Assembly: GCA_934098525.1 (NCBI GenBank)
Contig: CAKONZ010000003.1
Coordinates: 69,579-133,578 of the forward strand
Source of the DNA: an uncultured Bacilli bacterium
Lineage (GTDB): Bacteria; Bacillota_I; Bacilli_A; RF39; UBA660
DNA length: 64,000 nt
Direction: 5' to 3'
Shown: positions 56,485 through 59,287 of the stretch, piece by piece
How the letters are laid out: each line of letters begins with the position of its first letter
How positions within the stretch are numbered: position 1 is the stretch's first letter
Notes under the pieces: model-generated
Seen by the model: the letters and a program-made list of their open reading frames with translations, nothing else
Told to the model about the DNA's origin: nothing
The model's database searches: none
Position numbers and translations under genes: made by a program

Positions 56485-56973
56485 ATGTATAATTATACTT
56501 GCGTACCATCTTTACTTAACTCTGGTTATACTGATAATAATAGCGATGTTTTGGCTTATGATATTTTAGTTTTGGATGAGAGAGATTCATATGATTCTTC
56601 TTATCTTGGAGCTGATGGTCATGTTTTAGGAAAAATAGTTATTTATAGTAATGATATTGTTAAAATAATGCCTTCATACGCTAATGATGATAAGAATGAG
56701 ATTAGAAAGAAAGAATTATTACTTTTATTTGCTTCTTTAGTTCCTAGATCAAAAATGAAGATTGTTAAAGATGGTAATGATTTGGTTTTAAATTCAGTTA
56801 ACTCATATATCAAGTTTTCTTGTATTTATGATAAGATTAAGTTTTCTTCTGCTATAGATGATATTGAAATTTTTAGAGTAGAAGATCAAAGAAGAGAAAA
56901 TGAGTATGTTTTAAAGTCTGCTATGTATGAAAGAAAAAGAACTATAAAAAAAGAAAGGGAAAATGAAAATTAA
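56485..56973 (+). CDS. Hypothetical protein (162 aa)
   Basis: ORF with no recognisable motif. Confidence 0.4.
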   Translation: MYNYTCVPSLLNSGYTDNNSDVLAYDILVLDERDSYDSSYLGADGHVLGKIVIYSNDIVKIMPSYANDDKNEIRKKELLLLFASLVPRSKMKIVKDGNDLVLNSVNSYIKFSCIYDKIKFSSAIDDIEIFRVEDQRRENEYVLKSAMYERKRTIKKERENEN

Positions 56974-58052
56974 TCATTTTCTCTTTCCTTTTTTTCTATT
57001 ATAAGTTTATTATTTAATAATCTTTTATTTTTTGGATTTATTAATATAGCTTTTTCTATCCATTTTTTTGCTTCTTTAATGTTATTTCTATAATACTCTG
57101 AAATTGATAATAAATCATATATAGTTTCATCCCAACAAAAAGGTTCATTTATATATGTTTTTTTATGTTCTTTTATTCTTAAGGCTCTTGTACAACAATT
57201 ATATACTTCTTCCCAGTTTTTTAATTGATATTCAAGTATAGCTTTTTCTACATAGGGTTCTCTTAAATATGGAGCTTCTTTTATTGCTTTTTCTAACCAC
57301 ATTTTTGCTTCTTCATAGCGATTTAAATTTATGTAACATCTTGATATGTATCTCATTGAGGCACATCTTTCATCTTTCCATGTTGCTTTGGGTAAGCTTA
57401 AATGTTTTATTAATGTGTCAATAGCCTCATTATATTTTTTGTAGTACATGTATTCTCTACCTAAATAATGGATGTTTCTATCATTATTAGGATTTTCTTT
57501 TACTGATAATTCTAGGAGTGGGAGATATGATGAACGTGATTTATTTGGATCTGGGTAGTGATTTAATATAATATTTTCATTTTTTATGATGTTTTCATTT
57601 TCTTTGGTTGTTAGTACTTCGTGTACTGGATATATCCATTTATATCCTAGACTATGTATTTTTTCATAGTAAAATGTTATTTGAGGGTTGTTATTTTTAT
57701 CTAGACTCCAATTATATATGTATTGACATTTGTTTGTATTTTTTTGCCATACTTTTTCTAACTCTTTTCTCCAACCTTTATTAAAAATTTCATCTAAATC
57801 TGTACATACACATATGTCTGTATCTTTAGGTAATAGTTTTAATGATTCATTTCTTGCTTTGTCAAAACGCCAGGGATTTATTTCTTTGATTTTAACATTA
57901 ACGTTTAAATCTTTTAATAGTTTTACTGTGTTATCAGTTGATCCTGTGTCTAGTACATATATTTCATCTGCTTCTTTCATTGATTCCACCCAACGTGTTA
58001 CAAATTTTTCTTCATTTTTACATATTGCGTATACGCAAACTTTATATTTCAT
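56970..58052 (-). CDS. GT2-family glycosyltransferase with C-terminal TPR repeats
   Basis: N-terminal AICKNEEKFV...VLDTGSTDNT...DxD(CTDLDE) GT2 motifs; TPR-like C-terminal helices; RBS overlaps upstream collagen-like gene stop. Confidence 0.7.
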   Translation of the reverse strand: MKYKVCVYAICKNEEKFVTRWVESMKEADEIYVLDTGSTDNTVKLLKDLNVNVKIKEINPWRFDKARNESLKLLPKDTDICVCTDLDEIFNKGWRKELEKVWQKNTNKCQYIYNWSLDKNNNPQITFYYEKIHSLGYKWIYPVHEVLTTKENENIIKNENIILNHYPDPNKSRSSYLPLLELSVKENPNNDRNIHYLGREYMYYKKYNEAIDTLIKHLSLPKATWKDERCASMRYISRCYINLNRYEEAKMWLEKAIKEAPYLREPYVEKAILEYQLKNWEEVYNCCTRALRIKEHKKTYINEPFCWDETIYDLLSISEYYRNNIKEAKKWIEKAILINPKNKRLLNNKLIIEKKEREND

Positions 58053-58060
58053 TATCTACC

Positions 58061-59001
58061 TTATCTTCCTAAATAATCTATTGTGATTGTAACAAGTGAG
58101 TTTGTGAAGTATGAACTAGATTCTATATTATTAATATCAGGTGTATTTAGATAAACTATTTCTGGACTTAAATTTACTAATTCATAAGCATTTGATATAT
58201 CATTTACAGATATTATACCGCTTGCTACAATTTGTTTTGTTTGTTTATCATATATCCATTCACTAGCTCCAATATAAATATTATCTGTTCCTACTAATCT
58301 AAACCCTAAAGCTACAAAATTTTTGTTTGGATCAAAAGTTGTAGATTCACCATTAGTATGAGCTGATACAATAAAACTTACTTTGTAATATCCAATTGTA
58401 TTAAACTGAATGGTTTTTTCATTAGTATCTAATGTTACAATTCCAGTTATGTCTAATTCCTTTCTGTTTATTGGTAATCTTTCATCTTGTGGTATTGGAA
58501 TTCCTTGTTCTGATTCATTTGCGTTAAATGTTACTAAATATGCAGATCTGTTAAGTATTGGTCCAGTAGGCCCGGTTGGTCCGGTTGGTCCAGTTGGTCC
58601 TATTTCACCTTGTTCTCCTGTTAAACCAATTGGTCCTTGTAAACCTTGATCACCTTTTGGACCTTTTATTTCTCCTACGCTTGTCCAATTGTTATCTTTT
58701 TCGTTCCATACATATAGTTCTGTTCCTACAAGATATGAATCTCCTACATTTCCAGTTTGATGATCATTAGTTAAATCTTGATAAGTATCATATTTTCCTA
58801 GTATGGTAACACTTGTTCCATCATTACCTTTTGGTATTATAAAATCTAATATATGATTATTACCTGTTTTTGTCTCTATTACTTGGGCTTCTGTTCCTGG
58901 GTTACCTGTTGCTGTTGTTCTTATTGTGATTGTATCTGCTGCACCAGTAGGTCCTGCTGGCCCAGTTGGTCCAGTAGGCCCGGTAGGTCCGGTCTGTGCA
59001 T
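58061..59001 (-). CDS. Collagen-like (GPT)n protein with BclA-like C-terminal domain; open frame 59014..58061 has no ATG/GTG/TTG, and the only nearby ATG (59001) is in another frame
   Basis: Hand translation: [20 protein letters not shown]... second GxY run [35 protein letters not shown], then ~190-aa C-terminal domain with FNTIGYYKVSFIVSAHT resembling BclA C-terminal jelly-roll. Confidence 0.55.
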
Positions 59002-59065
59002 AACTAAATTTCTTCTAAATAGAGTAATCGTAAATATAACCCCATATTCCTTTATAAATACATTA

Positions 59066-59094
59066 AAAATAACCTTTTCTGAAAAGGTTATTTT
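59066..59094 (-). terminator. Strong hairpin terminator separating the upstream four-gene block from the collagen-like gene
   Basis: AATAACCTTTT-CAG-AAAAGGTTATT perfect stem flanked by A/T runs. Confidence 0.65.
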
Positions 59095-59287
59095 ATTTTA
59101 ATTAATACAATATTTCATTTTTCATATATTTTTTTATTTTCATAATCTTGTTTTAATTCTTCTGACAATTTTTATTTTAGATTAATTGTATTTTTTAATT
59201 TCTACATATTATTTTATATTTTTTTGTATCGGTAATTTAATATTATCAATTATCATCTTTTAATCTATCATCGTATCAAAATTAGTA

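What the first reader, a model, noticed from the sequence alone, without database searches (positions are those of the whole stretch)
56970..59100. Collagen-like (GPT)n, BclA-like glycoprotein gene with no usable start codon, translationally coupled to a GT2-TPR glycosyltransferase
The minus strand between 59014 and 58061 is a 317-codon open frame. It was missed by the ORF track because it contains no ATG, GTG or TTG codon at all. It encodes a short GPT triplet run, a ~95-aa globular insert, a second GxY run ending in [14 protein letters not shown], and a ~190-aa C-terminal domain. That C-terminal domain resembles the TNF/C1q-like domain of Bacillus/Clostridioides exosporium BclA proteins (FNTIGYYKVSFIVSAHT versus BclA FNTVG...FYKITVIANTA). 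The only ATG (59001-58999) is shifted one frame and stops after 24 codons. A single-base indel right after the ATG would fuse M to QTGPTGPT..., which suggests a frameshift, phase variation or an assembly error. The stop codon lies 8 nt before a GT2-TPR glycosyltransferase whose RBS overlaps it. This is the same logic as C. difficile bclA3-sgtA and the glycosylated BclA of the B. cereus group. With the other spore genes in this window, this looks like a spore-surface collagen-like glycoprotein with a dedicated glycosyltransferase, and the lineage may not have a described one. Two near-identical GGTCCNGTNGGNCC runs (58562-58600 and 58950-58995) are potential recombination or slippage substrates.
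Basis: partly seen in the sequence, partly recalled or inferred. Interest (0 to 1): 0.78.

Follow-up and report, generated by a model that had tools for sequence, protein, structure and literature searches.

The report
Collagen-like gene split by mobile element
The "start-less" collagen-like gene is the rear part of a BclA-type surface-protein gene, cut off from its promoter and first 35 codons by a mobile element that a serine recombinase inserted into its Gly-Pro-Thr repeats; sister strains without the element carry the gene intact.

Summary
Window 59014..58061 (-) is a 317-codon open frame with no in-frame ATG, GTG or TTG, followed 8 nt later by a GT2+TPR glycosyltransferase gene.

The cause is not a frameshift, slippage or assembly error. 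Homology to sister-strain contigs stops exactly at window 58993. Those contigs carry an intact 342-aa gene with ribosome-binding site, ATG and a Cys-rich leader. Upstream of 58993 the window holds the right end of an integrated mobile element at least 18 kb long, with conjugation-type genes. Another contig holds the matching left junction: the gene's 5' fragment, then a 701-aa large serine recombinase. Joining the two junctions restores a 412-aa ORF.

Related elements split collagen-like genes in other genomes, always at an AC dinucleotide inside (GPT)n-coding DNA.

The protein is BclA-like. Its C-terminal domain folds as a BclA/C1q/TNF jelly roll. The gene-plus-glycosyltransferase pair is conserved in about 26 of 80 related loci and mirrors C. 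difficile BclA3/SgtA. A sigmaE/sigmaK-type -10 motif precedes 80% of family genes against 8.5% of controls, which suggests mother-cell expression. Spore location and regulated excision remain unproven.

This is a new variant of a known kind, of moderate interest.

The parts
58061..58993 (-). 3' portion of the collagen-like BclA-type gene. It runs from Thr36 of the intact allele to the TAA stop and is the gene-derived part of the start-less frame.
   Evidence: It is 99.4% identical to sister-strain L105 from exactly 58993 downwards. L105 encodes the intact 342-aa protein.
58992..58993 (-). AC dinucleotide at the junction, the likely crossover core of the serine-recombinase site.
   Evidence: The same AC within CCN-AC-NGG lies at every junction compared: window, L086, L043, L031 attL/attR, L095 attL/attR, L110 attL and L105 attB.
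58994..59040 (-). Right-end attachment arm of the mobile element. It holds the out-of-frame ATG 59001-58999, the TAG 59017-59015 and the seven element-derived codons KKFSYAQ.
   Evidence: It is identical in 8 independent contigs and joined to different downstream genes. It resembles the recombinase-proximal arm of L043. It is an imperfect inverted repeat of the L110 left arm.
59068..59092 (-). AT-rich hairpin plus T-run that ends the element's last cargo gene.
   Evidence: Read directly and conserved in L086-L093 and L095. The terminator scan did not flag it because it has fewer than 3 G-C pairs.
59288..64000 (-). Cargo genes at the right end of the element: ORFs of 349, 346, 313 and 521 aa, continuing beyond the window.
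   Evidence: No Pfam, PHROG or PADLOC family. The block is 97% identical to one in the 7.7-kb recombinase element of L095-L098. L087 and L099 extend it into conjugation-type genes.
56970..58052 (-). GT2 + TPR glycosyltransferase (360 aa), 8 nt downstream of the collagen-like gene's stop.
   Evidence: Pfam Glycos_transf_2 8.5e-12 plus TPR. PDB sequence hit GmaR 5.5e-6. Found next to family genes in about 26 of 80 related loci at 60-70% identity.
58930..59000 (-). First (GPT)n-coding 9-nt repeat run, the integration target.
   Evidence: the junction lies inside this run.
58559..58663 (-). Second collagen GXY run (aa 118-152). It has one GPT unit more than L105.
58664..58939 (-). Two small beta modules between the collagen runs (aa 26-117).
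   Evidence: High pLDDT beta structure. The region matches phage tail-fibre PHROGs 3904 and 819.
58064..58558 (-). C-terminal globular domain (aa 153-317) with a BclA/C1q/TNF-like jelly-roll fold.
   Evidence: Foldseek top hit 9h38 F-BclA, E 6e-8, TM 0.82, followed by C1q and TNF families. Only 187 cluster representatives among 1.84 billion match at E<=1e-3.

Best explanation
The open frame is the downstream (attR-side) part of a two-gene operon. The operon encodes a collagen-like, BclA-type protein and a GT2-TPR protein glycosyltransferase.

A mobile element integrated by a large serine recombinase sits inside the N-terminal (GPT)n-coding repeats, at the AC of Thr36. The promoter, ribosome-binding site, ATG and Cys-rich leader are therefore separated from the rest of the gene by at least 18 kb of element DNA and lie outside the window. 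The seven codons KKFSYAQ, the upstream TAG and the out-of-frame ATG are element DNA (its attachment arm).

In the integrated state neither the collagen-like protein nor, probably, the coupled glycosyltransferase can be made from the operon promoter. Recombination of the two junctions would rebuild an intact 412-codon gene.

Shown here: the breakpoint, the intact allele, the complementary junction with its recombinase, in-frame restoration in silico, and recurrence of the same kind of insertion in other collagen-like genes.

Inferred: that the protein is a glycosylated spore-surface fibre made in the mother cell, and that the element still excises.
For: 1. Breakpoint. L105-L109 are 99.4% identical to window 58993..53393 and unrelated upstream of it. 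They encode an intact 342-aa gene ([36 protein letters not shown]...) with a GAAAGGAG ribosome-binding site, and the same glycosyltransferase 8 nt downstream.
2. Left junction. L110 has the same left flank as L108. It carries the 5' fragment, then ...GGACCTAC|TGCTACATAACTGTATTTCTTCC, then a 701-aa Resolvase+Recombinase protein on the opposite strand and a 52-aa ORF. Its arm is an imperfect inverted repeat of the window arm (GGAAGAAATACAGTTATGTAGCA versus TAGAAGAAATTTAGTTATGCACAG), as expected for a serine-integrase attP.
3. In-frame restoration. Joining the junctions at AC gives uninterrupted ORFs: window+L110 412 aa; L031 425 aa (element 4,247 bp); L095 225 aa (element 7,691 bp).
4. Not an artefact. 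The same right end is 100% identical in 8 independent contigs and is joined to a different collagen/BclA_C gene in L086.
5. Recurrence. L031, L043 and L052 are also start-less, with a 680-719-aa serine recombinase abutting the junction or the same arm sequence. The other family genes read through to their 5' end begin with a start codon, nearly all followed by a Cys-rich leader.
6. Element nature. L087 and L099 (99% overlap) extend the window's element into XRE, SSB, a SpaA-type surface protein, sortase and a TrbL/VirB6-like gene.
7. Protein identity.
8. Conserved pairing with the glycosyltransferase. SgtA architecture and activity: PMC7157674.
9. Promoter motif. CATAnnnTA lies at -50..-12 in 48 of 60 unique family upstream regions against 19 of 224 controls, Fisher p = 1.8e-27. 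The sigmaE/sigmaK consensus is as tabulated in PMC3416734.
Against: - The 5' fragment and the recombinase are not in the window. The link between L110 and the window rests on shared flanks with the sister strain and on complementary arms, not on one continuous contig.
- L110's 5' fragment carries about 65 more collagen codons than the L105 allele, so the two halves may come from slightly different strains.
- The middle of the element was not recovered.
- No relaxase, VirB4 or coupling protein was seen.
- No excised (attP) junction was found, although the collections searched do not hold the relevant samples.
- No sporulation-specific gene was established in the window.
- Pfam BclA_C does not hit this protein at E<=0.1.
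Confidence: 0.88

Rival explanations
1. One reading: an intact gene whose start was lost through a 1-nt indel just after the ATG at 59001-58999. The indel would be a sequencing or assembly error, or a slippage-type phase-variation switch.
For: An ATG lies one frame off, immediately before the GPT run. Repeat copy number does vary between strains.
Against: The ATG and the 21 nt before the junction have no counterpart in the intact allele, and homology stops at 58993. The same sequence is found in 8 independent assemblies and is joined to a different gene in L086. Homologues start with a 20-35-aa Cys-rich leader, not with M-QTGPT. There is no homopolymer or slippery site at the ATG.
Confidence: 0.02
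2. A prophage tail-fibre gene with a phage-borne glycosyltransferase.
For: The central modules and collagen part hit tail-fibre PHROGs 3904 and 819 (E 5e-21 and 5e-20). The glycosyltransferase hits PHROG 13126 (2.6e-112). There are distant jumbo-phage homologues.
Against: No phage structural, packaging or lysis genes flank the gene in the window, in sister strains or in related genomes. The pair sits in ordinary chromosomal contexts. The C-terminal domain is closest to BclA/C1q. The family carries a conserved sigmaE/K-type promoter motif. The neighbouring element has conjugation-type genes, not phage genes.
Confidence: 0.03
3. Plain, non-regulatory insertional inactivation. A promiscuous mobile element landed in the gene recently. 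The ORF is still open only because too little time has passed, and the gene is simply lost in this strain, with no biological role for excision.
For: The insertion is strain-polymorphic: sister strains are intact. The same element end sits in another collagen-like gene in L086, and related elements sit in yet other contexts. The interrupted copy differs from the intact one by only 8 substitutions and one 9-nt indel. This shares all the structural facts of the best explanation and differs only in the consequences.
Against: Large serine recombinases normally allow precise excision when a directionality factor is present. A conserved small ORF precedes each recombinase gene. Every insertion examined is positioned so that excision restores the frame. 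Targets repeatedly carry a mother-cell-type promoter motif, as with known sporulation intervening elements.
Confidence: 0.45
4. A silent cassette in a recombinational antigenic-variation system. Start-less collagen-like cassettes would be shuffled onto a single expression site, as in Mycoplasma vsa or Neisseria pilS.
For: One constant upstream sequence is joined to at least two different downstream collagen-like genes. Contigs L087 and L090 break exactly at the junction. Each genome holds several collagen-like paralogues.
Against: The constant side is the end of a mobile element with cargo genes. It has no promoter or start codon in frame. Intact genes each have their own promoter, ribosome-binding site and leader. 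The different junctions occur in different genomic neighbourhoods, which fits transposition of the element between strains rather than inversions within one locus.
Confidence: 0.04

Closest known systems
Clostridioides difficile BclA3 with SgtA (exosporium collagen-like glycoprotein and its O-GlcNAc transferase; PMC7157674)
   Same: A collagen-like protein with GXT repeats, no signal peptide and a BclA-type C-terminal fold is encoded directly next to a glycosyltransferase of about 360 aa. That enzyme has an N-terminal GT-A/GT2 domain and C-terminal TPRs (SgtA 358 aa; here 360 aa). Threonine-rich GPT repeats are plausible acceptor sites.
   Different: The gene order is reversed: here the glycosyltransferase is downstream and translationally coupled. 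The protein has two extra small beta modules between two collagen runs and a different Cys-rich leader. Sequence orthology to SgtA or BclA3 could not be tested. The lineage is uncultured low-GC gut Bacilli. Here the gene is interrupted.
Bacillus BclA and F-BclA (PDB 1wck; 9h38, tip fibrillum of F-ENA spore appendages)
   Same: These are the best structural match (9h38, E 6e-8, TM 0.82) and the only PDB sequence-profile hit (1wck, E 6.9e-5) to the C-terminal domain. They share the layout of collagen stalk plus C1q/TNF-like head.
   Different: Identity is about 15%. Pfam BclA_C does not reach E 0.1. The B. cereus-group N-terminal exosporium-targeting motif is absent. The domain family is small and lineage-restricted (187 representatives).
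Sporulation-gene intervening elements excised by large serine recombinases: skin in sigK (SpoIVCA), SPbeta in spsM (SprA/SprB; PMC4191935, PMC5499854), gin in gerE (PMC5595907)
   Same: A coding sequence is split by an element that carries a large serine recombinase at one end next to a small ORF. Recombination of attL and attR restores the frame precisely. The target family carries a mother-cell-type promoter motif. The L031 element (4.2 kb, little beyond the recombinase) resembles gin.
   Different: Excision during sporulation is not shown. The window's element is ICE-like rather than phage-like. The target is a repetitive (GPT)n sequence present in several paralogous genes, so the insertion site varies between strains instead of being fixed in one gene.
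Conjugative and mobilisable elements integrated by large serine recombinases, such as Tn5397 with TndX or SCCmec with Ccr (cited from my own knowledge, not checked here)
   Same: A large serine recombinase sits at an element end, with a 2-bp crossover core and short imperfect inverted-repeat arms. Cargo and conjugation-type genes (VirB6/TrbL-like, sortase plus surface adhesin, SSB) are present.
   Different: The target is collagen-repeat coding DNA. Relaxase, coupling protein and VirB4 were not seen because the middle of the element was not recovered.
Listeria GmaR (flagellin O-GlcNAc transferase, GT2 + TPR)
   Same: It is the closest solved structure by sequence to the window's glycosyltransferase domain (E 5.5e-6, aa 8-166). 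It is a protein-glycosylating GT2 with TPRs.
   Different: Similarity is low. GmaR acts on flagellin and doubles as an anti-repressor.

Membership tests
BclA-type collagen-like spore-surface proteins | Collagen GXY triplet region | tested here: met
   There are two GXY runs (aa 9-26 and 118-153). Pfam Collagen scores 26.8 bits, just under the 27.2 cut-off.
BclA-type collagen-like spore-surface proteins | C-terminal BclA_C / C1q-TNF jelly-roll head | tested here: met
   Met at fold level. The model has pLDDT 83. Foldseek's top hits are 9h38 F-BclA, E 6e-8, TM 0.82, then C1q and TNF. The family profile hits only BclA 1wck in the PDB, E 6.9e-5.
BclA-type collagen-like spore-surface proteins | Match to Pfam BclA_C (PF18573) by sequence | tested here: not met
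   No hit at E<=0.1. Other collagen-like genes in the same genomes do hit it (L001 16456-17589 and L086 4454-4837).
BclA-type collagen-like spore-surface proteins | B. cereus-group N-terminal exosporium-targeting motif | tested here: not met
   Intact alleles start with a different Cys-rich leader, M..Y.K.L.KI..D.KC.P.CC or [18 protein letters not shown]. The comparison motif was recalled from memory.
BclA-type collagen-like spore-surface proteins | Expression in the mother cell and location on the spore surface | tested here: inconclusive
   A sigmaE/K-type -10 motif (CATAnnnTA) precedes 48 of 60 family genes against 19 of 224 controls. There is no signal peptide. The window holds no sporulation-specific gene. 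Related orders are predicted to be a mix of sporulators and non-sporulators (PMC10868615). Location is not testable in silico.
SgtA-like protein O-glycosyltransferase | N-terminal GT-A/GT2 domain plus C-terminal TPRs, about 360 aa | tested here: met
   Pfam Glycos_transf_2 at aa 7-132 and TPR_1/2/8 at aa 180-345. SgtA is described in PMC7157674.
SgtA-like protein O-glycosyltransferase | Encoded next to its collagen-like substrate gene | tested here: met
   The gap is 8 nt in the window and in L105. The pairing is conserved in about 26 of 80 related loci.
SgtA-like protein O-glycosyltransferase | Sequence orthology to C. difficile SgtA; beta-O-GlcNAc transfer to Thr of collagen repeats | not testable with these tools
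The activity needs biochemistry.
Gene-intervening element with large serine recombinase | Target ORF split into 5' and 3' fragments flanking the element, with an intact allele in relatives | tested here: met
   The window holds the 3' part, L110 the 5' part and L105-L109 the intact allele. Both fragments lie on a single contig in L031 and L095.
Gene-intervening element with large serine recombinase | Large serine recombinase gene at an element end | tested here: met
   Recombinases of 701 aa (L110), 680 aa (L095, L031) and 719 aa (L043) carry Resolvase+Recombinase+Zn_ribbon_recom. None lies inside the window itself.
Gene-intervening element with large serine recombinase | attL x attR recombination restores the reading frame | tested here: met
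   In-silico joins give ORFs of 412, 425 and 225 aa.
Gene-intervening element with large serine recombinase | Developmentally regulated (sporulation-specific) excision | not testable with these tools
   The only lead is a conserved CATAAGTTA upstream of the small ORF plus recombinase operon in L095 and L110. No attP junction was found in JGI or IMG/VR.
Integrative conjugative element | Conjugation machinery (VirB4, coupling protein, relaxase, VirB6) | tested here: inconclusive
   L099 shows a TrbL/VirB6-like gene, sortase, a SpaA-type adhesin and SSB. VirB4, T4CP and relaxase were not seen because the element's middle was not recovered.

The most novel reading that the evidence does not exclude
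In uncultured low-GC gut Bacilli, the (GPT)n-coding repeats of sigmaK-type, BclA-like spore-surface glycoprotein genes would serve as multi-copy landing pads for a family of serine-recombinase elements. These range from minimal 4-kb elements to an ICE.

The elements would behave as sporulation-specific intervening elements. A small directionality factor under a mother-cell promoter would trigger excision in the mother cell. Excision would rebuild the collagen-like gene and its glycosyltransferase operon, so the element is silent for the spore coat yet inherited through the forespore. This would be the first conjugative element, and the first repeat-targeting one, in that role.
Probability: 0.2. 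Interest if true: 0.75.

Novelty: new variant of a known kind. Interest (0 to 1): 0.42.

Why it matters
- It replaces a puzzling "gene without a start codon" with a concrete, checkable structure: attR of an integrated element.
- Gene callers miss such halves. The intact and split alleles of this species were absent or invisible in a search of 5.8 billion proteins, where the best hit was 56% identical.
- It defines a sizeable BclA-like protein plus SgtA-like glycosyltransferase module in gut Bacilli lineages known only from metagenomes. A conserved mother-cell-type promoter motif there supports the genomic prediction that some of these lineages sporulate.
- It suggests that collagen-repeat DNA can act as an attachment site for large serine recombinases. 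I found no report of this in the searchable literature. It is relevant both to mobile-element biology and to integrase prospecting.

Tried and rejected
- **Leader elsewhere in the window.** tblastn with eight homologue leaders found nothing.
- **Programmed -1 frameshift from the ATG.** No slippery heptamer is present, and the two alleles differ at the candidate site. The idea was dropped once the intact allele was found.
- **Read-through of the upstream TAG, or a non-canonical start.** The upstream peptide has no similarity to family leaders, and there is no near-cognate codon.
- **Serine recombinase inside the window.** None found by tblastn.
- **Exact look-ups that returned nothing.** The window glycosyltransferase and the 521-aa ORF were not on record.
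- **attP (excised circle) junction and element-arm searches.** Zero hits in JGI metagenomes and IMG/VR. This is uninformative, because the relevant samples are ENA or Logan.
- **Defence or phage annotation of the cargo genes.** No Pfam, PHROG or PADLOC hit.
- **Sporulation-specific identity of window genes.** All fell below NCBIfam cut-offs.
- **Literature on collagen-like genes as integration sites.** Nothing found.
- **The window's own genome in the GTDB scan.** The degenerate search patterns did not match the window's sequence, so its presence or absence there could not be judged.
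Full report
**1. The observation**

On the minus strand, 59014..58064 is an open frame of 317 sense codons. A TAG (59017-59015) precedes it and a TAA (58063-58061) ends it. It has no in-frame ATG, GTG or TTG, and no ATT, ATC, ATA or CTG before codon 29. With the window's stop-codon density (0.089 per codon, 26.4% GC), an open run of this length has a per-frame probability of about 2e-12.

The product reads KKFSYAQ-(GPT)n-insert-(GXY)n-globular domain.

- The ATG at 59001-58999 is in another frame and gives a 26-codon ORF, not 24.
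- The 360-aa ORF 58052..56970 begins 8 nt after the stop. It carries Pfam Glycos_transf_2 (8.5e-12) and TPR repeats.
- The two repeat runs (58549-58619 and 58930-59000) are 9-nt-periodic direct repeats up to 89% identical.

The C-terminal domain is about 165 aa, not about 190.

**2. What the homologues show**

A protein search returned more than 1000 relatives, the best only 56% identical but matching over the full length. Nearly all carry an extra 20-35-residue, Cys-rich N-terminal leader of the form M..Y.K.L.KI..D.KC.P.CC-IGPTGP. The window copy lacks it. No such leader is encoded anywhere else in the window. The gene is therefore truncated at its 5' end, not merely frameshifted.

**3. Not an assembly artefact**

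The 349-aa protein encoded just upstream (59288..60337) occurs with identical sequence on 8 other metagenome contigs. All share the upstream DNA up to ...TAGAAGAAATTTAGTTATGCACAGAC with 100% identity.

- L088 (100% over 5172 nt) and L089 (99.5%) reproduce the whole start-less gene.
- In L086 the same sequence is joined to a different gene, a short (GPT)3 gene with Pfam BclA_C, followed by unrelated neighbours.
- L087 and L090 end exactly at the junction.

The junction is therefore real and is a strain-variable breakpoint.

**4. The decisive comparison**

Contigs carrying a glycosyltransferase at least 90% identical (L105-L109) are 99.4% identical to window 58993..53393. They have no similarity to the window upstream of 58993. 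They contain an intact 342-aa gene with a GAAAGGAG ribosome-binding site. It begins [60 protein letters not shown]... and is followed 8 nt later by the same glycosyltransferase.

The window's copy begins at Thr36 of that gene. The first 35 codons and the promoter are replaced by foreign DNA. KKFSYAQ, the TAG and the out-of-frame ATG belong to that foreign DNA.

**5. What the foreign DNA is**

*Other interrupted family genes.* Among 80 related loci from a collection of species-representative genomes, the family genes that could be read through to their 5' end start with M plus a leader. Three also lack a start: L031, L043 and L052.

- In L043 and L031 a large serine recombinase gene of 719 or 680 aa ends 20-40 nt before the collagen frame.
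- L031 holds the missing 5' fragment 4.2 kb upstream on the same contig.

*Close relatives of the window's element.* L095-L098 are 97% identical to window 64000..59189. Their element runs, in order:

1. a 5' gene fragment (MNNETEKLMLMKKLCYRNCYIVGPTGPT|...);
2. a 680-aa Resolvase+Recombinase protein on the opposite strand;
3. a 59-aa ORF;
4. four cargo genes of 620, 308, 343 and 349 aa;
5. a hairpin;
6. the 3' gene fragment.

*The window's own gene.* L110 has the same left flank as the intact sister strain. It carries the 5' fragment, broken at ...GGACCTAC|TGCTACATAACTGTATTTCTTCC. A 701-aa serine recombinase (75% identical to L043's) and a 52-aa ORF follow. The reverse complement of that arm (GGAAGAAATACAGTTATGTAGCA) is an imperfect inverted repeat of the window's arm (TAGAAGAAATTTAGTTATGCACAG) around a central AC. 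A serine-integrase attP looks like this.

*Junction core and restoration.* Every junction examined has the same AC within CCN-AC-NGG, the Pro-Thr-Gly codons. Joining the junctions in silico restores uninterrupted ORFs of 412 aa (L110 + window), 425 aa (L031) and 225 aa (L095).

*Element content and size.* In the window type, L087 and L099 (99% overlap) extend the element leftwards. They add XRE and SSB genes, a 901-aa SpaA-type surface protein, a sortase and a TrbL/VirB6-like gene. This makes it an ICE-like element of at least 18 kb. Its middle was not recovered. The window itself contains no recombinase.

**6. What the gene encodes**

- AlphaFold2 with a 30-sequence alignment gave mean pLDDT 83. 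The model has two small beta modules and a well-defined all-beta C-terminal domain.
- Foldseek against the PDB ranks the C-terminal domain of B. thuringiensis F-BclA first (9h38, E 6e-8, TM 0.82). C1q-family and TNF-family domains follow.
- A profile of the family hits only BclA (1wck, E 6.9e-5) in the PDB, and the match extends about 65 residues beyond the collagen part (single sequence).
- Pfam BclA_C does not match.
- The C-terminal domain family is small: 187 cluster representatives among 1.84 billion.
- The central modules match phage tail-fibre PHROGs. No phage genes surround the gene in any context examined.

**7. The glycosyltransferase**

A homologue at 60-70% identity lies next to the family gene in about 26 of the 80 related loci, mostly directly downstream (also L005). 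Its closest solved relative by sequence is Listeria GmaR, a flagellin O-GlcNAc transferase.

C. difficile SgtA is described as 358 aa, with a GT-A domain plus four TPRs. It is encoded next to bclA3 and adds beta-O-GlcNAc to threonines of the BclA3 collagen repeats (PMC7157674). Size, architecture and pairing are therefore the same. Sequence orthology could not be tested.

**8. Is it spore-related?**

The window holds no gene that reaches a sporulation-specific NCBIfam cut-off. The FtsW/SpoVE-like, SpoVB/MurJ-like, amidase-LysM and APH-type ORFs are generic.

The family genes do carry a strikingly conserved CATAnnnTA motif, mostly 24-32 nt upstream of the start codon. It occurs in 48 of 60 unique upstream regions against 19 of 224 control genes from the same loci (Fisher p = 1.8e-27). 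A conserved C lies 17 nt further upstream. The motif also occurs upstream of the intact allele of this species and of the L095 target gene.

The motif matches the -10 consensus of B. subtilis mother-cell sigma factors: sigmaK GCATANNNTA and sigmaE KCATANANTN, as tabulated in PMC3416734. The proteins have no signal peptide.

The homologues come from uncultured gut MAGs labelled Bacilli, Mollicutes, Tenericutes, Clostridium sp. CAG:1219 and Acholeplasma sp. CAG:878. The orders RF39, RFN20 and ML615J-28 are predicted to contain both sporulating and non-sporulating species (PMC10868615).

Mother-cell expression and a spore-surface location are therefore a reasonable inference, at about 0.5. They are not shown.

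**9. Mechanism and consequences**

Shown: integration at an AC inside the first (GPT)n run separates the promoter, ribosome-binding site, ATG and leader from the rest of the operon. A hairpin ends the element's last gene just upstream of the junction.

Inferred: in the integrated state neither the collagen-like protein nor the coupled glycosyltransferase is expressed from the operon promoter. Only weak sigma70-like matches lie inside the gene, and they are not above shuffled expectation.

Whether the element excises is open.

- For excision: frame-preserving junctions; a conserved small basic ORF before each recombinase gene, which could be a directionality factor; and a conserved CATAAGTTA upstream of that ORF in L095 and L110.
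- For plain disruption: the insertion is polymorphic between strains, and the same element sits in different collagen-like genes in different strains.

Known parallels are skin/sigK, SPbeta/spsM and gin/gerE (PMC4191935, PMC5499854, PMC5595907).

**10. Verdict**

The anomaly is explained by a known kind of event: a mobile element integrated by a serine recombinase into a coding sequence. It has three unusual features. The target is collagen-repeat DNA shared by several paralogous genes. The target family looks like a BclA/SgtA-type spore-surface glycoprotein module in lineages known only from metagenomes. One carrier is ICE-like.

I found no report of collagen-like genes as integration sites in the searchable literature. 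Interest is moderate, and this is a new variant of a known kind.

Noticed in passing
window 55067-55136 and 56364-56433 (flanking ORF 55397..56281): A 70-nt direct repeat (99%) of the 3' end of the P-type ATPase gene (52557..55133) brackets the APH-family (CotS-like fold) kinase gene. Sister contigs L106, L107 and L109 lack the kinase gene. It therefore looks like a strain-variable 1.3-kb insertion with target duplication.
   Followed up: partly
window 59288-64000 (-); L095 6069-11050: A four-gene block (349, 346, 313 and 521/620 aa) has no Pfam, PHROG or PADLOC hit. It rides, at 97% identity, on both a 7.7-kb recombinase-only element and the window's ICE-like element. The 346-aa ORF has an HELTH metalloprotease-like motif.
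   Followed up: partly
L105 4186-5733 (sister strain, 1.2 kb upstream of the intact gene): A second, shorter (515-aa) serine recombinase gene sits next to TetR and MMPL genes, just upstream of the collagen-like operon. Its element and target are unknown.
   Followed up: no
window 19902..20855 (+): An AbiD/Abi_2 abortive-infection gene (PADLOC 1.1e-59; Pfam 2.2e-41) lies beside an HtrA protease gene.
   Followed up: no
L001/L002/L024 around 15669-15923 (-), upstream of a Collagen+BclA_C gene at 16456-17589: A remnant of about 90 codons of a serine recombinase C-terminus lies just upstream of another collagen-like gene. Decayed elements of this family may persist next to such genes. Recombinase homologues also flank family genes in L046, L063, L064, L069 and L085.
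   Followed up: partly
L095 5849-6068 (-), L110 13555-13741 (-), L043 about 3560-3620: A conserved sequence, TTTTATCTCATAAGTTAAATTAGRAACT, followed by an inverted repeat precedes the small basic ORF plus recombinase operon. It contains a sigmaE/K-like CATAAGTTA.
   Followed up: partly
L093 1456-1465: A third continuation after the junction (…GCACAGAC|CAGTGCTATAG) appears at a contig end. It is too short to interpret.
   Followed up: no
window 58559-58663 and 58930-59000 versus L105 and L089: Copy-number differences of 9 and 12 nt in the GPT runs between near-identical strains confirm that the repeats are unstable.
   Followed up: partly
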